Assembly: GCA_035541435.1 (NCBI GenBank)
Contig: DATKNL010000002.1
Span: 67,962 to 131,961, forward strand
Length of the DNA stretch: 64,000 nucleotides
Direction of reading: 5' to 3'
Source of the DNA: Minisyncoccota bacterium
GTDB taxonomy: Bacteria > Patescibacteriota > Minisyncoccia > UBA6257 > 2-01-FULL-56-20
Positions 38,436 through 62,556 of this stretch are shown here, in pieces. The stretch's first letter is position 1, and each line of letters begins with the position of its first letter. The notes beneath the pieces are model-generated. The model was not told the origin of the DNA. It saw only the letters and a list, made by a program, of their open reading frames with translations, and made no database searches. A program made the translations under genes and the position numbers.

Positions 38436-38890
38436 CGATTCAACCGCCAAATTTCATAATTCAACACCGTTGCGAAAGACGACCAGAGCGCATAGGGCAC
38501 CATAAGCCATGCGGCCGCGGCATTGACTCCGGAAAATAGAACGACGGTTGTCACGATGAATATCAGAAGGACGACGAGTTCGACAAGCGCAGCGCCGAGG
38601 CGCTTTGCACCGAAAAACAAGGGCGTCCACAGGGCGTTGAGGATGAGCTGAACGACGAAAACGTCGAAGGCGGTTCCGCTCCCGCTTGTCCGGAACACGA
38701 GGTAGGCCGCGATCCCCTGCAGCGCGTAAAGGATCGTCCAGACTGGTCCGAAAACCCAGTTGGGTGGATTGAATGTCGGCTTTCTCAGCTTGGCGTACCA
38801 CGTCGGAATCGCGCGAACCGTAAAGAGGCTTCCGCCAACGCCCACCAGTTCGCACAACGCAATGAAGACGGCGAGCAGGAGCCAATTCAT
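38432..38890 (-). CDS. tspO: TspO/MBR (tryptophan-rich sensory protein) family
   Basis: 152 aa, five TM helices, conserved Trp/Pro pattern (WYAKLRKPTFNPPNWVFGPVWTILY). Confidence 0.85.
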   Translation of the reverse strand: MNWLLLAVFIALCELVGVGGSLFTVRAIPTWYAKLRKPTFNPPNWVFGPVWTILYALQGIAAYLVFRTSGSGTAFDVFVVQLILNALWTPLFFGAKRLGAALVELVVLLIFIVTTVVLFSGVNAAAAWLMVPYALWSSFATVLNYEIWRLNR

Positions 38891-39038
38891 GTATCAATTA
38901 TACTCCCGACTTCGGGGTTGTTCATCAAAAGAAAAGCCCGGAAAAGCAATTGACAAAGTCGATAAGATTTAGCATACTATTCCAGTCCGAGCGCACTCCA
39001 TAAAGGAGGCAGGATGGACGGAAAGAGAGTTCTTTACT

Positions 39039-39608
39039 ATGGCTGCAAGAAGTGATGTTGCGACGATGGTGCGTGGCATGGGGATGGGCATGAAAGTGCT
39101 CGACCTGCTCGTGAACGAAGCCGAGAAGCAGGGTGCGGACAAGGAGGCATTCGCCTTTTTGACCCGTCCGCGCTTCAAGGGAAATCTTGAAAAGATAGGG
39201 AAAGCTATTGCCGAGTGCGATTGGCGAATTCCCGCGAGCGAGATGCGCGCACTCGCGCGGAAACGCGAATCGGAAGAATACGGTCTCGACTCGGAAGCCG
39301 AAATTGAGCAGGCGGCAAACCTCTGGTGGTCGGGAACGTGCATTGATTTCGGGATCCCCTATGATCGGTATTGCCAAAATCCCAACCACGGCGATCCTGC
39401 GATTCTGCCCATTTTTCTGAAAGAGCTGGACGGAAAAGCAATGGAATACCCGCTTATCCTTTCGCCCTTCATCGGCAGCGAGCGCCGTTTCGTGGTTGTC
39501 GACTTCATCACGACCGAAGCGCTGTATCGCCCGGGCGATCGGATCGACATAAATCAAATCGACGCGCTTGCAGTTGCCGATTGTAAGTATTTCGATTTCG
39601 AGAAGTAA
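39039..39608 (+). CDS. Hypothetical protein in lower-GC island
   Basis: 189-aa ORF with local composition clearly more AT-rich than flanking DNA. No domain recognized. Confidence 0.45.
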   Translation: MAARSDVATMVRGMGMGMKVLDLLVNEAEKQGADKEAFAFLTRPRFKGNLEKIGKAIAECDWRIPASEMRALARKRESEEYGLDSEAEIEQAANLWWSGTCIDFGIPYDRYCQNPNHGDPAILPIFLKELDGKAMEYPLILSPFIGSERRFVVVDFITTEALYRPGDRIDINQIDALAVADCKYFDFEK

Positions 39609-39929
39609 TCGCTAACCAAGGCGCACGCCAGCTCATGTTGGACGTGCGTTTTTTTATATTTGTTTCAGAGTCCGTTCTTTCGTCGCTCCCATTATCCAGC
39701 GATATTTTTATTTCAGCAACATTACAAAACCACGACTTCCGGGGCAAACAAAAACAGCTCCATTTCTGAAGCTGTTTTCGGGAATTCGTACATGGTTGCG
39801 TCCCAACTCGACACCGTCTCAATGATTTTAGCGACCCATAATCTGAAGTCAAATTTGATTTAATTTAGATTTAATCTAACTTTTTTATCATGTTCGTCGT
39901 GGAACACCTGCAGATTTCCAGCATATGCT

Positions 39930-40610
39930 CTATTCCTTAATCATCTTCAAAAGCGCCTCCTTGGAAACCACTTTGCCATCTATGGCGATTTGGCCGGATA
40001 TTTCGTTAATGGCTTTCTCAATCTTCTCCATGCCCTTGTTTACCTTGGCCCGGATCAGCTCATCCACAATAAAGGTTTTCATTTCCTTTCCTTCCGCATA
40101 AGCTTTCTTCAACGCAGCATCCCGCTCTTTGGGCTTATATGTCAAAAGCTGATGCACCACCTTATTCCGCTGCTTGATGTAAGCGTCCAGCTTTTTATAG
40201 AGCGGTGCGTCAATGACATGCCCGATCAGAAGAAGCTCCAGTTGTTTCGATATCTGCCAGCGTTCAACACTTTTCGCAAGCTCCTTATTTCCCGCAAGGC
40301 CGTCCATGAAATGAATTGCAACGCATGTCTTTATCACGCCCTCAAACAGGCATGACTGGATAAGAAACGCCTCTAAAAATTGCCCCTGCTGATAAAAAGA
40401 TTCCGCTCGCGCTACTAGCTGGTCGTAGATCGCCTCCTCTTTTGGAATGCCTTGGTTGGCCATAACTTCATTATACTTGACCTCCTCCACCGGAACATTC
40501 TCTGCGACGTTTGCGCTACCGTGAGCTACCCGGCGTTCCATTTTGCAGTCCGCTACTGATCTATGTTTTTGATAAGACCTCACGCGATAGCGCAAAATAG
40601 CGCAGGACAA
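39930..40610 (-). CDS. Hypothetical all-alpha protein in lower-GC island; weak HEPN resemblance (single Rx4H match)
   Basis: KQRNKVVHQL matches the R-[N]-x3-H HEPN signature near a predicted C-terminal helix. Start uncertain (internal Mets at codon 24/50). Confidence 0.4.
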   Translation of the reverse strand: MSCAILRYRVRSYQKHRSVADCKMERRVAHGSANVAENVPVEEVKYNEVMANQGIPKEEAIYDQLVARAESFYQQGQFLEAFLIQSCLFEGVIKTCVAIHFMDGLAGNKELAKSVERWQISKQLELLLIGHVIDAPLYKKLDAYIKQRNKVVHQLLTYKPKERDAALKKAYAEGKEMKTFIVDELIRAKVNKGMEKIEKAINEISGQIAIDGKVVSKEALLKMIKE

Positions 40611-40750
40611 ATCTCGATTAAAAATGACGGCATCTGTAATTTATTTGAATTCTGCAAAATCCGTATAAACCTCCAAGAATAAAGGCGATCCTCCAACGAA
40701 CTTCACTGTTCAGCAATCCCATTTGCATCTGCTTGTTTCCTGCTCATGCC

Positions 40751-40777
40751 CAAAAAACCCAGCATTTCTGCTGGGTT
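40751..40777 (-). terminator. Rho-independent terminator ending the rplM-rpsI transcript
   Basis: Minus-strand AACCCAGC-loop-GCTGGGTT hairpin followed by a U-run (plus-strand AAAAAA at 40752-40757). Confidence 0.6.
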
Positions 40778-40804
40778 CTCGTAAGCATTCTAACCAAAGC
40801 TCCT

Positions 40805-41296
40805 CTAGCGCTTCGCCCATTGGGGACTCCGGCGCGCTTTCTTCTTGCCGTACTTCTTGCGTTCAACCATGCGGCTGTCGCGGGTCATATAGCCGACGGC
40901 GCGGAGGCGCGGCTTCCATTCGCCGTCGCGGAGCACGATCGCGCGGGCGAGGCCCAGGCGGATCGCTTCGGCCTGCGCGCGGATGCCGCCGCCGACGATC
41001 CGCACCGACACGTCGAGGTCGGTGAGCTTGAGTTCGTTGAGGGGTGCCTTGGCGGCCGCGACGAGGCGCGCGGTGCTGAAATAGGACTTCACGTCCTTGC
41101 CGTTCACGGTGACGGTCCCCTTGCCGGCCGAAATGCGCACGCGGGCGATCGCCGTCTTGCGGCGGCCGACGGCCTCGGTATAGCGCGCGGCCTTATGCCC
41201 GTGCGACGGGGCGGGCGCGTGATGTGCCTCGGCGGCCGCCGGTGCGGATGCGGCGGTCTGGGGCTCCTTCTTCACGGTGTCTTTGGCGGTGGCCAT
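40805..41296 (-). CDS. rpsI: 30S ribosomal protein S9 (with N-terminal extension)
   Basis: GRRKTAIARV...GGGIRAQAEAIRLGLARA...KKYGKKKARR. Confidence 0.9.
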   Translation of the reverse strand: MATAKDTVKKEPQTAASAPAAAEAHHAPAPSHGHKAARYTEAVGRRKTAIARVRISAGKGTVTVNGKDVKSYFSTARLVAAAKAPLNELKLTDLDVSVRIVGGGIRAQAEAIRLGLARAIVLRDGEWKPRLRAVGYMTRDSRMVERKKYGKKKARRSPQWAKR

Positions 41297-58743: not shown

Positions 58744-58814
58744 GCGGGTATGGTTCAGTGGCAGAACGCGACCTTCCCAAGGTTGAGATACGGGTTCGAT
58801 TCCCGTTACCCGCT
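58744..58814 (+). tRNA. tRNA-Gly (anticodon CCC)
   Basis: Manual fold: acceptor GCGGGUA/UACCCGC, D-arm GUUC-AGUGGCA-GAAC, anticodon loop UUCCCAA giving CCC, T-arm ACGGG-UUCGAUU-CCCGU, discriminator U. Confidence 0.85.
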
Positions 58815-58825
58815 CATATAAAAAA

Positions 58826-59526: not shown

Positions 59527-62500
59527 TCATCGATTCAGCACCCTTACCACCCCCTCGTTTGCGTCAACCTCAATCCAGTCGCCGTCATTTATCACGTCGG
59601 TAGCTATTCTGGTGCCGATAACGCAAGGCTTCTTAAACTCCCTCGCAATAATGGCGGCGTGACTCGTGACTCCGCCTTCGTCGGTGACGAAAGCGGCCGA
59701 TCTTTTCATCGCCGGCAGATAGTCGGGCATCGTCATGGGACTAATCAGGATCTCGCCCTCTTTCAAGGTCGGCACATCCTTAAGGCTCATGATTTTTCTT
59801 GCAATGCCGCGAACTTTACCCCGGTGAGCGGATTGGCCCGAAAACTCCTTGATAGCGTCAGGCGCCTCAGAAACAATGGCGATATTAAATTTTTCTTCCA
59901 TTTCCCTAACACCCGCACCGACGAATAATGTTGCATCCGCAAAGGAATAGCTCTTCGTCCTGGCCTTCAATTCCCTCAATGAGGGCAGCTCCTTGGAATT
60001 GATTTCTTCGATGGTCAAAGCCGCCGAGAGCTTGCCTAGTTTTGGGAATATTTTAAGCAGTGAATTTCTTATCACGATGTCGCCATTCGGCACCATCGTT
60101 TCAGTGGAAACCCTAGCCCTTTTAACAATACGAAACGCTTTGCTGGTCGAACTTGCCATTTCCATCGTCCACCATACCGATTCGAACCAGGCCCACGCAT
60201 CCTCCAGATGAGCCATGAAGCTGACCAGCGTCTTATGGTTCAGCGTTCTTTTCCCTTTCCAAATTGGCTCGATATCCTTCGCCCTTTTATAAAATTCTCT
60301 TACGCATTTCTCGACGAACTTTTTATCCCTTTTCATGGACCTTCTCAGTTCGCCTTTTATCCAATCGATCCCTGCCTCATCGAGATAATCAGTAACCAGG
60401 CCATTCTCTCTGACGAAGATTTGATAAGGCAGCCTTGGATTGGTTCTGGCCGTCCATTGCCTTGGATTGGTAGTTTCAGCTCGGCACCACATCTGAATGA
60501 TCGGCAGGCAAAAATCTCGGACATAGGATTTGACATAGGTGCCTCTGATTTTCTTGCCCGATCCCGAGACGCTCGATCCCGCTATCCTTCTAACCCTTCC
60601 CTTGTCTGCATCGACCTCCACCATGTCGCCGTCCTTAAAGAATTCTGTCGCTATCTTCGTTCCGATGATGCAGGGTTTTCTAAGTTCCCTGGCAACGATT
60701 CCAGCGTGACACGTTATTCCACCTTCATCCGTGACAAAAGCCAGCGCCTTCTTCATAGCCGGCAAGAAGTCCGGCGTAGTCATAGGAGATACGATCACGT
60801 CGCCTTCTTTGACTTCCCCAACCTGATCCCGTCGCCGGAGTATCTTCACGCGGCCAACCACTCTGCCTTTTTGGGCTATTTCTCCGGCAATGACATTAGG
60901 ATCATTGATAGCGATGGATTCCTTTTCAAATGAGAATTGAGGATTTACATTTTCAAAGTCAGACAAGGTGCCAATAAAATGGTTTTTACCCTGAACAATA
61001 AGCGAGTGCCGCTTGCGGTCCTTCAGTGTCCTGTTGGCAGGAATCTTCCTAAGTTCGCTGATAAAAATCGCGGTTTCATAATGTTTTGCCCGCGGATATA
61101 AAGCGGAGATGCTGTCCATTATTACGATGTCATTTCGCGCAAAGAACTCATCCTTATTGCGCATCGCAAGAGCCTTTTTTCTGATGGGTTTTGGCGTTTT
61201 GTCGTCAACGGCGGAATAGTAATAAGCAATGAAGTAAGGGATTGCTTCCTTGGAAAGCTCAATGAGTTTAATGAGCTTACTCATCGGAAGCGGCGCCATC
61301 TTCCACAGTTCATGAATCGCATCGAGCCTGATTCTATATTCCCCGAGGATCTTGTCGATAAATTTCGGATTTCTTCTGTTTTCCTTCAAAATGGCATTTT
61401 CCAACCATTCGGTGGCTTTTACGTTCTCCCAAATTTCGATGCTTCCCTGATTCATGTAATGGATAATCCCAGGCAGATAAGGGTTCTTCCAACCAAATTC
61501 TCCTTCGACACCGTCAGAACATCCGAATGCCCATATCTCCTGCATGATATAGGTGGTATCACGGGTATATATCTTTTTGAACTTTATAGGATCGTCTTTT
61601 TCCTTCTTTGGCCAAGACAACGTCGTAATGGGCCGCGACTGCACGATATAAAATTTTCCCTTTTCCAAGGCCCATTCAATATCACACGGAAAACCATATT
61701 GGTCTTCGATGCGAAGAATCAATTTCGACAACTCGAGGATTTGCTTGTCGGGAAGAGCTTGCTTACCTGCTTTCGATTTGGAAATATCTTTCCACTCGTT
61801 TTCGCCCCTCGGCAAACGATAGAGTCCTCTGCCTTTTTTCGGGATTATCCGCTCAATAATTTTTCTTGGTTCTTTTTCGATTACATAGCTATCAGGAGTG
61901 ACTTGGCCGGAAACGATTGCTTCGCCCAACCCATAGCTTGCCTCGATGATAAGCTGGTTGCGATCCTGCGTTACTGGATGGACCGAAAAGGCGACGCCCG
62001 AAACCTCGCTCTCGACCATCTTTTGAACGACCACGGCGACGGAAATTTTTTCGGCGCGAAGCCCCTTCTCGAAGCGGTAGAAAATGGCGCGGGGCGTAAA
62101 GAGTGACGCCCAGCAGCGTTTCACATTTTCTAAAAGATTGCCTCCAGTGGTATTTAAAAAGCTATCCAGCTGCCCCGCCCACGCCGCCGATGAGCCGTCC
62201 TCGGCCGTTGCGCTGGAACGCACCGCGACGAATTTAGCTCCCAATTTCTTGAAGTTTCTTTTGATCTCCATGGCGACGTCCTCTGGCATTTCAGTGCCGA
62301 TAATGATCGCCCTGATTTCCTCGGATGCCCGCTCGACGCTGGCCGTGTTTCGATGCTTTATCTTATGCAAAATGGCATCTATGTCAGCTGCAATCCCCTG
62401 CTCTTCAATGAACTTTTCGAAGGCTGTCGAAAGAATGACGAAACCGGACGGAACCGGAAGGCCCGCTTGCGTCATTTCCCCAAGTGACGCTCCCTTGCCA

Positions 62501-62556
62501 CCAGCAAGCGCGACATCCTTTTTGCTCAACCCTTCAAAGTCCCGCGAGAATTCCAT
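59527..62556 (-). CDS. PEP-synthase / rifampin-phosphotransferase-like protein: N-terminal PPDK_N ATP-grasp nucleotide-binding domain plus two PEP-utilizing-enzyme mobile (phospho-His swivel) domains; no PEP/pyruvate TIM-barrel domain
   Basis: 1009 aa. N-terminus (ALAGGKGASLGEMTQAGLPVP...VAVRSSATAEDG...) is PpsA/PPDK_N-like. Swivel 1 ~aa 575-680 (GDVIVSPMTTPDFLPAMKKALAFVTDEGGITCHAGIVARELRKPCIIG) and swivel 2 ~aa 905-1009 (GEILISPMTMPDYLPAMKRSAAFVTDEGGVTSHAAIIAREFKKPCVIG), each preceded by a helical region. The gene is visibly AT-richer than the genome background. Confidence 0.75.
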   Translation of the reverse strand: MEFSRDFEGLSKKDVALAGGKGASLGEMTQAGLPVPSGFVILSTAFEKFIEEQGIAADIDAILHKIKHRNTASVERASEEIRAIIIGTEMPEDVAMEIKRNFKKLGAKFVAVRSSATAEDGSSAAWAGQLDSFLNTTGGNLLENVKRCWASLFTPRAIFYRFEKGLRAEKISVAVVVQKMVESEVSGVAFSVHPVTQDRNQLIIEASYGLGEAIVSGQVTPDSYVIEKEPRKIIERIIPKKGRGLYRLPRGENEWKDISKSKAGKQALPDKQILELSKLILRIEDQYGFPCDIEWALEKGKFYIVQSRPITTLSWPKKEKDDPIKFKKIYTRDTTYIMQEIWAFGCSDGVEGEFGWKNPYLPGIIHYMNQGSIEIWENVKATEWLENAILKENRRNPKFIDKILGEYRIRLDAIHELWKMAPLPMSKLIKLIELSKEAIPYFIAYYYSAVDDKTPKPIRKKALAMRNKDEFFARNDIVIMDSISALYPRAKHYETAIFISELRKIPANRTLKDRKRHSLIVQGKNHFIGTLSDFENVNPQFSFEKESIAINDPNVIAGEIAQKGRVVGRVKILRRRDQVGEVKEGDVIVSPMTTPDFLPAMKKALAFVTDEGGITCHAGIVARELRKPCIIGTKIATEFFKDGDMVEVDADKGRVRRIAGSSVSGSGKKIRGTYVKSYVRDFCLPIIQMWCRAETTNPRQWTARTNPRLPYQIFVRENGLVTDYLDEAGIDWIKGELRRSMKRDKKFVEKCVREFYKRAKDIEPIWKGKRTLNHKTLVSFMAHLEDAWAWFESVWWTMEMASSTSKAFRIVKRARVSTETMVPNGDIVIRNSLLKIFPKLGKLSAALTIEEINSKELPSLRELKARTKSYSFADATLFVGAGVREMEEKFNIAIVSEAPDAIKEFSGQSAHRGKVRGIARKIMSLKDVPTLKEGEILISPMTMPDYLPAMKRSAAFVTDEGGVTSHAAIIAREFKKPCVIGTRIATDVINDGDWIEVDANEGVVRVLNR

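What the first reader, a model, noticed from the sequence alone, without database searches (positions are those of the whole stretch)
38900..40720. AT-rich island between tspO and the rplM-rpsI operon encoding two orphan proteins, one with a weak HEPN-like Rx4H match
Composition shifts abruptly to AT-rich, including a ~270-bp non-coding stretch with short direct repeats (GATTTAAT x2) and hairpins (39660-39930). The 39930-40610 (-) product is all-alpha and has KQRNKVVHQL, a single match to the R-N-x3-H HEPN signature. That is weak evidence for a HEPN-like RNase-type toxin or abortive-infection protein, not a confident assignment. The convergent 189-aa partner (39039-39608) is unassigned. This is a candidate small defense or addiction locus, likely horizontally acquired.
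Basis: partly seen in the sequence, partly recalled or inferred. Interest (0 to 1): 0.6.

Follow-up and report, generated by a model that had tools for sequence, protein, structure and literature searches.

The report
Orphan HEPN RNase gene, AT-rich insert
A small AT-rich insert beside a ribosomal-protein operon of a candidate-phyla-radiation bacterium carries one stand-alone gene for a divergent HEPN-type (probable RNA-cutting, phage-defence) protein; the neighbouring "partner" gene is unrelated to it, but has a conserved, previously undescribed RNA hairpin in its leader.

Summary
Positions 39609-40804 have 41-47% GC against 62% for the window, among the lowest 1% of 500-bp windows. The sequence KQRNKVVHQL is present.

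The HEPN guess is supported well beyond a single motif match. The 177-aa product (39930-40463, minus strand) belongs to a family found mostly in Patescibacteria (the CPR group). R99, N100, H104 and E41 are at least 90% conserved in that family. The AlphaFold model has the HEPN helix order, with Rx4H at the end of core helix 3. The only recurring Pfam hits are HEPN-clan families, and one member passes the DUF4145 threshold. The best PDB fold hits are HepT and SsR10, though not significantly.

Relatives lie next to type III restriction-modification genes, LmuB-like ABC/SMC ATPases, Cas4-like nucleases, a UvrD helicase and serine recombinases. None of these occurs in this window, so the gene is an orphan.

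The "two-gene locus" reading fails. The genes are convergent, each has its own terminator, and the two families are never neighbours in about 45 other loci. The intergenic hairpins are terminators, and GATTTAAT x2 is at chance level.

An extra result: all 11 loci of the 189-aa gene family carry a 35-nt 5'-UTR hairpin (window 38985-39019) with covarying pairs and no Rfam match.

The parts
38950..38978 (+). Promoter-like site of ORF1 (TTGACA, 17 nt, CATACT)
   Evidence: Found by the consensus scan. TTGAC is invariant in all 11 ORF1 loci at the same distance from the RNA motif (alignment A7).
38985..39019 (+). Conserved 35-nt 5'-UTR hairpin of the ORF1 family: P1 GUCC/GGAC, a conserved internal loop GAGCG / GCAGGAU, P2 CUCC/GGAG and a variable apical loop
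   Evidence: Present once in 11 of 11 distinct ORF1 loci, 15-25 nt before the start codon. RNAalifold predicts 12 pairs, 5 with compensatory changes. Pair counts: 95.5% of cells paired, 0 of 500 shuffles reach the covariation score, slid controls 33-45% paired. Single-sequence MFE gives the same hairpin, z = -3.4. No Rfam match at E<=10. The covariance model finds no other copy in the window or in 50 loci.
39039..39608 (+). ORF1: 189-aa protein of unknown function and unmatched fold, a family seen so far only in Paceibacteria-type genomes
   Evidence: 23 homologues of about 185 aa. Invariant residues include R12, T42-R43-x-R45-F46, D61-W62, S67-E68. AF2 pLDDT 89.4. No PDB or BFVD fold match. 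No profile match in four libraries. Stand-alone gene in variable contexts.
39618..39659 (+). Intrinsic terminator of ORF1 (15-bp stem followed by U7)
   Evidence: strand folding: -21.7 kcal/mol, z = -4.1.
39742..39780 (-). Intrinsic terminator of the HEPN-like gene (14-bp stem followed by UUUUUGUUU), about 150 nt after its stop codon
   Evidence: strand folding: -18.8 kcal/mol, z = -4.85. Reported as inverted repeat I5.
39930..40463 (-). Orphan DUF4145-like HEPN-domain gene, 177 aa. Possible 5' extension to 40541; the maximal ORF reaches 40610. Catalytic-type residues: E41 (40341-40343), R99-N100 (40164-40169), H104 (40152-40154)
   Evidence: See the full report for the argument.
40464..40744 (-). 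AT-rich upstream region of the HEPN-like gene. The promoter is not identified; TATAAT lies 8 nt before the ATG at 40463
   Evidence: GC 0.446 for 40464-40804. No convincing small ORF. No significant RNA structure, z = -0.44. No Rfam match.
40745..40780 (-). Intrinsic terminator of the rplM-rpsI operon; this is the right-hand edge of the AT-rich insert
   Evidence: strand folding: -27.8 kcal/mol, z = -5.4.

Best explanation
The region holds three independent transcription units, not one locus.

**(1) The HEPN-like gene.** Between the terminator of ORF1 and the terminator of the rplM-rpsI operon lies an AT-rich segment of about 1.1-1.2 kb. It carries a single gene with its own terminator. Its 177-aa product is a divergent member of the HEPN superfamily, closest to the DUF4145-like branch. 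The predicted layout is: helix 1 (residues 8-25), helix 2 (29-56, with invariant E41), a two-helix insert (60-80), helix 3 (86-105, ending in the invariant R99-N100-x3-H104) and a long helix 4 / coiled coil (111-163).

Inferred mechanism: like other HEPN proteins, it dimerises so that two Rx4H motifs form a composite, metal-independent RNase site. The long C-terminal helix mediates oligomerisation or docking. When triggered it cuts cellular or phage RNA and stops translation, which is an abortive-infection type of defence.

In relatives the gene is embedded after type III restriction-modification genes, or immediately follows an LmuB-like ABC/SMC ATPase that would act as the sensor. In this genome no such partner exists within the 64 kb. 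The gene is therefore either a self-contained single-protein system, as shown experimentally for the DUF4145-HEPN protein RAZR, or a stranded effector. Its composition says it arrived by horizontal transfer from a lower-GC Patescibacteria donor.

**(2) ORF1.** It is an unrelated, lineage-specific gene. It is transcribed from a conserved sigma-70-type promoter. Its mRNA begins with a conserved 35-nt hairpin that most likely controls its translation or stability.

**Shown:** composition, terminators, family conservation, predicted topology, gene neighbourhoods, absence of pairing between the two genes, RNA covariation.
**Inferred:** RNase activity, defence role, dimerisation, horizontal transfer, regulatory role of the RNA.
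For: **Composition.**

**Separate transcription units.** Three terminators with z of -4.1 to -5.4.

**HEPN family conservation.**
- R99, N100, H104, E41 and Q36 are invariant in 63 sequences.
- E41, R99, N100 and H104 are at least 90% conserved in 115 distant relatives drawn from an exhaustive search of 1.8 billion representative proteins, which gave 153 hits at E<=1e-3.
- 111 of 114 of those relatives carry R[NHDSTQ]xxxH.

**Topology.** The AF2 model (pLDDT 85.5) matches the published HEPN rules: Rx4-6H at the end of helix 3, an acidic residue in helix 2, and an insert between helices 2 and 3 (PMC3710099).

**Profile matches.** The only recurring Pfam families are HEPN-clan:
- DUF4145 in 16 of 63 members, best 1.3e-5
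- Cthe_2314 in 11 of 63 members, 1.4e-5
- HepT-like and RiboL-PSP
- P0093 passes the DUF4145 gathering score, 25.6 against 23.1 bits

**Fold search.** The top Foldseek PDB hits are HepT/MntA, SsR10, the Aphanizomenon HEPN toxin and YutE, with probabilities of 0.5-0.95.

**Gene neighbourhoods of relatives.**
- P0002 (59% identical) lies 18 bp after type III Mod+Res and before a DUF2779/Cas4-like nuclease.
- L042 has a homologous Mod+Res, then an ATPase, then the HEPN gene.
- An LmuB-like ATPase is immediately upstream in 5 loci and two genes upstream in L008.
- Among 95 neighbouring proteins, 9 hit mad3, 7 hit PDC-S06 and 7 hit SMC_N.
- A GajB-like UvrD helicase occurs in L008, and a large serine recombinase is Pfam-confirmed there.
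- The recombinase in L041 is inferred from its N-terminal sequence only.
- These neighbourhoods match those listed for DUF4145 in PMC3710099.

**Functional precedent.** RAZR shows that a DUF4145-HEPN protein can work alone as an abortive-infection RNase (PMC13017515).

**No pairing with ORF1.**

**RNA motif.**
Against: - The window protein itself reaches only 13-14 bits on HEPN_RiboL-PSP, against a cut-off of 28.4.
- It has no PADLOC, NCBIfam or PHROGs match.
- It has no PDB relative by sequence, even with profiles.
- Foldseek E-values are 0.4 or worse, with TM-scores of 0.45-0.62.
- No immunity or antitoxin partner or sensor lies within 64 kb. Control of a toxic RNase is therefore unexplained.
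- Many family loci lie among housekeeping genes.
- No activity was tested.
- Horizontal transfer is inferred from composition only. The single related assembly (L001, 99.9% identical) also carries the gene. No sister genome lacking it was available.
Confidence: 0.6

Rival explanations
1. The two convergent genes form a toxin-antitoxin or addiction pair, with the HEPN protein as toxin and the 189-aa ORF1 as antitoxin.
For: The genes are adjacent. ORF1 also has below-average GC, 0.54. HEPN toxins are often paired with an antitoxin (HepT/MntA hits).
Against: - The genes are convergent and each has its own strong terminator.
- ORF1 homologues are never next to a HEPN-family gene in 11 loci, and HEPN-family genes are never next to an ORF1 homologue in about 35 loci.
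- ORF1 is not an MNT nucleotidyltransferase and matches no known antitoxin.
- ORF1 has its own conserved promoter and leader RNA.
Confidence: 0.03
2. The HEPN-like protein is not a defence toxin. It is a housekeeping or regulatory protein of Patescibacteria, for example an RNA-processing enzyme or a non-catalytic nucleotide- or partner-binding module.
For: - Many family loci sit among housekeeping genes, including ribonucleotide reductase, trigger factor, exonuclease VII, Sua5 and ribosomal operons.
- No antitoxin or sensor is present here.
- Distant relatives are fused to Sigma70_r4 and DnaA_C DNA-binding domains.
- The family is absent from the phage, plasmid and IMG/VR collections.
Against: - The catalytic-type residues are invariant.
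- The gene is patchy in distribution, with only 153 representative clusters among 1.8 billion.
- It is AT-shifted relative to its flanks in 25 of 27 loci.
- It recurs beside R-M genes, LmuB-like ATPases, nucleases and recombinases.
- A core housekeeping gene would be syntenic and host-like in composition.
Confidence: 0.2
3. The gene is a stranded remnant of a larger defence island, either an R-M-embedded or an ATPase-coupled HEPN effector. It has lost its partners and is now inert or decaying.
For: Relatives are embedded in multi-gene systems. No partner lies within 64 kb. Long AT-rich non-coding flanks of 321 and 341 bp surround the gene.
Against: - The ORF is full length, 177 aa against 178-181 in the nearest relatives.
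- All invariant residues are intact.
- It has a strong dedicated terminator.
- About three quarters of family loci also lack an ATPase neighbour, so solo occurrence is normal for the family.
Confidence: 0.12
4. The conserved element upstream of ORF1 is not a regulatory RNA. It is either a DNA operator for a transcription factor or just a 5'-terminal stabilising hairpin.
For: It lies directly after the promoter. It is short and nearly palindromic in outline. Only 11 sequences are available.
Against: - The pairs change by compensation (U-A to C-G, G-C to A-U, C-G to U-A). Conserved G-U pairs exist that make sense only in RNA.
- The two conserved internal-loop strands, GAGCG and GCAGGAU, are not reverse complements of each other, so the element is not a DNA palindrome.
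- Strict conservation of unpaired bases is not needed for a mere stabiliser.
Confidence: 0.25

Closest known systems
DUF4145-like HEPN domains (Pfam PF13643; Anantharaman et al. 2013, PMC3710099)
   Same: - RNxxxH at the end of core helix 3, an acidic residue in helix 2 and an insert between helices 2 and 3.
- Relatives occur in operons with restriction-modification genes and next to UvrD helicases and a DpnII/MboI REase. Some are fused to sigma-type HTH domains. All of these contexts are listed for DUF4145 in that paper.
- One family member passes the PF13643 threshold.
   Different: - The window protein and most of its family do not reach the PF13643 threshold.
- The family is stand-alone, 140-200 aa, with a long C-terminal coiled-coil helix.
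- It is almost confined to Patescibacteria/CPR.
RAZR (zinc-finger + DUF4145-HEPN abortive-infection RNase; PMC13017515)
   Same: It is a single-gene system with a DUF4145-type HEPN RNase and no antitoxin. The enzyme stays inactive until a trigger reorganises its oligomer. This shows how an orphan HEPN gene like this one can be tolerated and still function.
   Different: - The window protein has no zinc-finger sensor domain; it has a C-terminal long helix instead.
- The Rx4H spacing (R99...H104) differs from RAZR's R146...H154.
- No sequence-level match was shown here.
- No trigger is known.
HepT/MntA (HEPN-MNT) toxin-antitoxin systems (PDB 5YEP, 6M6W, 7BXO, 7AE8)
   Same: These are the best fold matches of the predicted structure. 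They are minimal HEPN proteins of similar core size with an RNxxxH motif.
   Different: There is no adjacent MNT nucleotidyltransferase gene. The tyrosine of the RX4HXY motif is absent; the sequence here is H104-Q-L. Foldseek E-values are not significant.
Lamassu / ABC-3C systems (LmuB SMC-like ATPase with variable LmuA effectors; PMC10586767)
   Same: In six related loci an ATPase of about 800 aa lies immediately upstream, or two genes upstream in L008. It matches PADLOC LmuB models full-length at 1e-20 to 1e-27. In four of these loci a small ORF of 68-78 aa precedes the ATPase. That would make the HEPN protein a candidate effector.
   Different: - No ATPase is present in this window.
- The gene order is small ORF, ATPase, HEPN, which differs from lmuA-(lmuC)-lmuB.
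- HEPN is not among the LmuA effector domains listed in the review.
- The effector here is much smaller than typical LmuA proteins.
Small hairpin-type riboswitches and protein-binding leader RNAs (for the ORF1 5'-UTR motif)
   Same: - It is a 35-nt hairpin with two covarying stems flanking a strictly conserved asymmetric internal loop.
- It lies between the promoter and the Shine-Dalgarno sequence.
- It is associated with a single gene family in 11 of 11 cases.
   Different: It matches none of the 4227 Rfam families at E<=10. No ligand or binding protein is known. Only 11 examples are available.

Membership tests
HEPN superfamily | Conserved Rx4-6H motif | tested here: met
   R99-N100-K-V-V-H104. 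R, N and H are invariant in 63 family members and at least 90% conserved in 115 distant relatives. 111 of 114 relatives carry R[NHDSTQ]xxxH.
HEPN superfamily | Motif placed at the end of core helix 3 and the start of the loop to helix 4 (PMC3710099) | tested here: met
   In the AF2 model (pLDDT 85.5), residues 99-104 close helix 86-105. A loop follows at 106-110 and then helix 111-163. This is a predicted structure, not a solved one.
HEPN superfamily | Conserved acidic residue in helix 2, and an insert between helices 2 and 3 | tested here: met
   E41 lies in helix 29-56 and is invariant or at least 90% conserved. [quoted passage not shown]
HEPN superfamily | Significant structural match to solved HEPN domains | tested here: inconclusive
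HEPN superfamily | Match to a curated HEPN-clan profile above its threshold | tested here: inconclusive
   The window protein scores 13.4-14.1 bits on PF18735 against a cut-off of 28.4. Family member P0093 scores 25.6 on PF13643 against 23.1, which passes. P0064 scores 25.7 on PF18730 against 27.1, just below. HEPN-clan families are the only recurring hits.
HEPN superfamily | Metal-independent endoribonuclease activity | not testable with these tools
   Requires biochemistry.
HEPN-MNT (HepT/MntA) toxin-antitoxin | Adjacent minimal nucleotidyltransferase (MNT) antitoxin gene | tested here: not met
   The neighbours are ORF1 (no Pfam match) and rpsI. There are no convincing small ORFs in the flanks.
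HEPN-MNT (HepT/MntA) toxin-antitoxin | RX4HXY motif with the AMPylated tyrosine | tested here: not met
   The sequence is RNKVVHQLL, with no Y at H+2.
Lamassu / ABC-3C | LmuB-type SMC/ABC ATPase encoded with the effector | tested here: not met
   tblastn of the relatives' ATPases against the whole window gives no hit. The feature is met only in related loci L008, L031, L038, L039, L040 and L042.
Known Abi / RnlA / LsoA / other catalogued defence HEPN proteins | Match to PADLOC or Pfam models of those families | tested here: not met
   PADLOC gives 0 families at E<=10. A family member (L040) also gives 0 at E<=0.01. There are no Abi or RnlA Pfam hits.
Any Rfam RNA family (for the ORF1 leader hairpin) | Covariance-model match | tested here: not met
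   No match at E<=10 on window 38940-39075 or on L054 2902-3037. The scan of 38700-41000 returned only a sub-threshold sraA hit elsewhere in the region.

The most novel reading that the evidence does not exclude
The 35-nt hairpin that begins the ORF1 mRNA (window 38985-39019) is a previously undescribed class of cis-regulatory RNA in Patescibacteria. It would be either a very small riboswitch or the operator of an autoregulatory RNA-binding protein. It controls a lineage-specific protein whose confidently predicted fold matches nothing in PDB or BFVD.

A second, independent novel reading concerns relatives of the HEPN gene. There, an LmuB-like ATPase plus this HEPN protein would form a Lamassu-type system with an RNase effector, a type not among those listed in the review read here.
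Probability: 0.4. Interest if true: 0.6.

Novelty: new member of a known kind. Interest (0 to 1): 0.4.

Why it matters
**HEPN gene.** Defence systems of CPR/Patescibacteria are poorly catalogued. These organisms have tiny genomes and mostly lack CRISPR (my own knowledge, not checked here). This work defines a CPR-centred, uncurated branch of DUF4145-like HEPN proteins. None of Pfam, NCBIfam or PADLOC names the window protein.

- The branch has clear catalytic residues.
- It recurs beside type III R-M genes and LmuB-like ATPases.
- It gives a concrete target for annotation and for testing a possible RNase-armed Lamassu-like system.

For this genome the practical result is modest: one orphan, probably horizontally acquired, candidate abortive-infection RNase, and not a two-gene module.

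**ORF1 leader hairpin.** This is potentially the more useful by-product. Structured regulatory RNAs specific to CPR bacteria are, to my knowledge, rarely reported. This one comes with a covariance model, a fixed genetic context and a protein of unknown fold to test it against.

Tried and rejected
1. **ORF1 as partner or antitoxin.** Rejected by neighbourhood analysis and by separate terminators.
2. **A small antitoxin ORF or sRNA in the two AT-rich intergenic regions.** There are no conserved or convincing ORFs. Rfam gives only a sub-threshold sraA hit, 28.7 bits against 56. Folding of 39796-39929 and 40464-40610 is not better than shuffles, z = -1.2 and -0.4.
3. **The GATTTAAT x2 direct repeat.** Chance level.
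4. **A 21-nt inverted repeat (39602-39622 / 40449-40469) bracketing the HEPN cassette, as a possible recombination site.** 18 of 21 matches is reached in 15 of 60 shuffles. Rejected.
5. **Short direct repeats D2 and D4 as target-site duplications.** At chance level by my rough estimate (D2 15 of 20, D4 an 11-mer with one mismatch). Not pursued.
6. **An upstream ATG at 39014 with a perfect SD, as a leader peptide.** It is not conserved: ATA in L049, and a different frame in L002 than in the window. The GGAGG is a stem strand of the RNA motif.
7. **tRNA or integrase at the island border.** No tRNA lies within 17 kb. No homologue of the relatives' serine recombinase occurs in the window.
8. **Sequence-profile search of PDB with 63- and 115-sequence profiles.** Nothing relevant.
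9. **Phage or plasmid origin.** No relatives in IMG/VR, INPHARED or PLSDB.
10. **Pattern scan of viral contigs for the RNA motif.** 46 hits, a number consistent with chance by my estimate. The best scores 29 bits, inside a coding region.
Full report
**Source and setting.** The window is from a Candidatus Paceibacterota (CPR/Patescibacteria) metagenome-assembled genome. The HEPN-like protein is identical to NCBI 'hypothetical protein VMT99_00775 [Candidatus Paceibacterota bacterium]'. A second assembly (L001) is 99.9% identical over 9.3 kb and has the same arrangement. The window is 62% GC.

The gene order around the finding is as follows:
- DinB(-)
- DUF1653(+)
- tspO(-)
- ORF1(+)
- HEPN-like(-)
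- rpsI(-), rplM(-), rplQ(-), rpoA(-)

**Observation.** The composition shift is real.
- Positions 39609-40804 have 41-47% GC, among the lowest 1% of 500-bp windows. The only other such region lies at 59.7-61.7 kb.
- ORF1 is only mildly low (54%), like tspO and DUF1653 (56%).
- GC3 separates the genes more sharply: 0.58 for HEPN-like, 0.63 for ORF1, 0.70 for tspO, and 0.87-0.90 for ribosomal and core genes.
- The non-coding stretch is 321 bp. Its hairpins are intrinsic terminators:
  - ORF1's at 39618-39659, z = -4.1
  - the HEPN gene's at 39780-39742 on the minus strand, z = -4.85
  - the rpsI operon terminator at 40780-40745, z = -5.4
- The AT-rich segment therefore sits exactly between two convergent terminators and carries one gene with its own terminator.
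- GATTTAAT x2 is not beyond chance.
- A 21-nt inverted repeat bracketing the gene is also at chance level.
- Rfam finds nothing meaningful in the region.

**The HEPN-like protein: family.** Word-indexed searches found 4 close relatives, then 78 with a profile. An exhaustive HMMER search of 1.84 billion cluster representatives found 153 at E<=1e-3.
- Named sources are Paceibacterota, Staskawiczbacteria, Parcubacteria, 'Saccharibacteria' and one Rhabdochlamydiaceae MAG.
- In the 63-sequence alignment, L30, A32, F33, L34, Q36, E41, L78, Y95, R99, N100, H104 and Y122 are invariant.
- In 115 more distant relatives, E41, R99, N100 and H104 remain at least 90% conserved.

**The HEPN-like protein: structure.** AlphaFold2 with this alignment gives pLDDT 85.5 and an all-alpha model. 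Its helices are at 8-25, 29-56, 60-68, 71-80, 86-105, 111-163 and 168-176.

The reference analysis of the superfamily (PMC3710099) states three rules:
- Rx4-6H lies at the end of core helix 3 and the start of the loop to helix 4.
- The conserved acidic residue lies in helix 2.
- HEPN is marked by an insert between helices 2 and 3.

All three hold here. R99-H104 closes helix 86-105. E41 is in helix 29-56. Helices 60-80 form the insert.

**The HEPN-like protein: profile and fold matches.**
- The window protein only brushes PF18735 (13-14 bits against 28.4).
- Across the family, the only recurring Pfam hits are HEPN-clan: DUF4145, Cthe_2314, HepT-like and RiboL-PSP.
- P0093 passes the DUF4145 gathering score, and P0064 narrowly misses Cthe_2314.
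- The best Foldseek PDB hits are HepT/MntA, SsR10, the Aphanizomenon HEPN toxin and YutE. They are not statistically significant.
- Profile searches of PDB sequences found nothing.

I conclude that this is a genuine but divergent and uncurated HEPN family, nearest the DUF4145-like branch. My confidence in the fold and homology assignment is about 0.85.

**Context of relatives.** I collected about 35 non-redundant loci.
- The closest relative with context is P0002 (59% identity). It lies 18 bp after a type III Mod+Res pair and before a DUF2779/Cas4-like nuclease.
- L042 has a homologous Mod+Res (Res 3e-110). Two small ORFs follow, then a 798-aa ATPase, then the HEPN gene.
- ATPases of about 800 aa that match PADLOC LmuB models full-length (1e-20 to 1e-27) lie immediately upstream in five loci. 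In L008 the ATPase is two genes upstream.
- L008 also carries a GajB-like UvrD helicase and a large serine recombinase. A recombinase in L041 is inferred from its N-terminal sequence only.
- Among 95 neighbouring proteins, the most frequent families are SMC_N, mad3, PDC-S06 and LmuB. Single cases of DpnII/MboI, PD-Lambda-2_B and PDC-S11 also occur.
- The remaining loci are next to housekeeping genes.
- The gene is lower in GC than the rest of its locus in 25 of 27 loci, by 6.4 points on average.
- Distant relatives keep RNxxxH and are fused to Sigma70_r4 and DnaA_C HTH domains.
- R-M operons, UvrD, DpnII/MboI and sigma-HTH fusions are exactly the contexts listed for DUF4145 HEPN domains in PMC3710099.
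- None of these partner genes exists anywhere in the 64-kb window.
- The family is absent from IMG/VR, INPHARED phages and PLSDB plasmids.

**Mechanism (inferred).** By analogy with characterised HEPN RNases, two protomers would pair their Rx4H motifs into one composite active site that cleaves RNA. The long helix 111-163 would mediate oligomerisation or docking to a partner.

RAZR is a zinc-finger + DUF4145-HEPN protein. It is experimental proof that such an enzyme can exist without an antitoxin, stay latent, and be switched on by phage proteins to cleave single-stranded RNA and abort infection (PMC13017515).

The window gene could work like that, or it could be an effector stranded without its ATPase or R-M context. 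My estimates are about 0.55 for an active defence RNase, 0.2 for a non-defence role and 0.12 for a remnant.

**ORF1 is not a partner.**
- It has 23 homologues of about 185 aa, in genomes of 43-52% GC. The two named by their source are Paceibacteria/Paceibacterota.
- It has many invariant residues and a confident model (pLDDT 89.4).
- It matches no fold in PDB or BFVD and no profile in four libraries.
- In 11 loci it is a stand-alone gene in changing neighbourhoods, often convergent with a ribosomal-protein operon, and never near a HEPN-family gene.
- No ORF1 homologue is found in any HEPN-family locus.

**Unexpected result inside the finding's coordinates.** DNA similarity between ORF1 loci extends upstream of the start codon. 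Alignment of 11 loci shows the following order:
- an invariant TTGAC(A) -35 box
- a -10-like box
- a 35-nt element, GUCC-GAGCG-(C)UCUCC-loop-GGAGG-CAGGAU-GGAC (window 38985-39019)
- the Shine-Dalgarno sequence and the ATG

Evidence that this is a structured RNA:
- RNAalifold predicts one hairpin with 12 pairs, 5 of which show compensatory changes.
- With my structure string, 95.5% of cells pair, and 0 of 500 shuffles reach the covariation score or the count of double changes. Slid controls give 33-45% pairing.
- Each sequence folds into the same hairpin on its own.
- The upstream ATG at 39014 is not conserved, so this is not a leader peptide.
- The conserved loop strands are not mutually complementary, and conserved G-U pairs occur. 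Both points argue for RNA rather than a DNA operator.
- No Rfam family matches at E<=10.

Evidence on its distribution:
- A covariance model (R1) finds the 11 known copies at 47-58 bits. It finds nothing else in the window or in 50 loci.
- Pattern hits in viral contigs are at chance level.

**Verdict.** The two-gene defence or addiction locus reading is not supported. The thing itself is a new member, in effect a new uncurated subfamily, of a known kind. It is of ordinary to moderate interest. The ORF1 leader RNA is an added lead of higher potential novelty.

Noticed in passing
window 38985-39019 (+); also L002 5948-5982, L048 1367-1400, L049 4948-4981, L051 4948-4981, L052 4951-4983, L054 2950-2983, L055 2950-2984, L057 2950-2983, L059 2973-3006, L061 166-199: A conserved 35-nt 5'-UTR hairpin with covarying stems and a strictly conserved internal loop lies directly after a conserved promoter. 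It is upstream of every ORF1-family gene examined (11 of 11). No Rfam match.
   Followed up: yes
window 59527-62556 (-), with tRNA-Gly at 58744-58815: This is the second AT-rich region of the window (GC 0.42-0.49). It is one 1009-aa gene whose product looks, from its sequence, like a PEP-utilising enzyme (pyruvate phosphate dikinase / PEP synthase type). It starts about 700 bp from a tRNA-Gly gene and is possibly another horizontally acquired gene. No family search was run on it.
   Followed up: no
L038 368-3555, L040 3334-6543, L042 3367-6543, L031 3387-6570 (related loci): A recurrent three-gene operon: a small ORF (68-78 aa), an LmuB-like SMC/ABC ATPase (about 800 aa) and the HEPN-family protein, with overlapping or nearly abutting genes. 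In L042 it lies directly after a type III R-M pair. This is a possible Lamassu-like system with an RNase effector.
   Followed up: partly
Proteins P0131, P0137, P0154, P0165, P0171, P0192, P0204: These are distant relatives of the HEPN-family domain, mostly retaining RNxxxH. Of the four scanned (P0131, P0137, P0154, P0204), all are fused to Sigma70_r4 plus DnaA C-terminal HTH DNA-binding domains. A further group of about 480-500 aa carries the domain at the C-terminus, after an uncharacterised region.
   Followed up: partly
L008 55-9818: A compact defence and mobile island in a Parcubacteria MAG. It holds an LmuB-like ATPase, a DUF2779/Cas4-like nuclease, the HEPN-family gene, a GajB-like UvrD helicase with a Top1 zinc ribbon, an unknown 369-aa protein and a large serine recombinase.
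   Followed up: partly
window 39749-39768 and 40751-40770: The terminator of the HEPN-like gene and the rpsI operon terminator share 15 of 20 bases (CAAAAACAGCTCCATTTCTG / CAAAAAACCCAGCATTTCTG), 1002 bp apart. This could be chance or a trace of the insertion event.
   Followed up: no
L059 3001-3573 (P0011), L002 5977-6570: Some database start codons of ORF1 homologues fall inside the RNA motif, at the ATG of GGAUGGAC. These are probably mis-called. The conserved start is the ATG about 20 nt downstream, after the Shine-Dalgarno sequence.
   Followed up: partly
L054 4511-5269 and 6256-6474; L052 3062-4941: ORF1 homologues sometimes lie near an Abi_C-domain gene with an HTH_3 regulator (L054). 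In L052 the homologue is divergent from a LexA-like S24 peptidase and a Y-family polymerase pair. No consistent pattern was seen.
   Followed up: no
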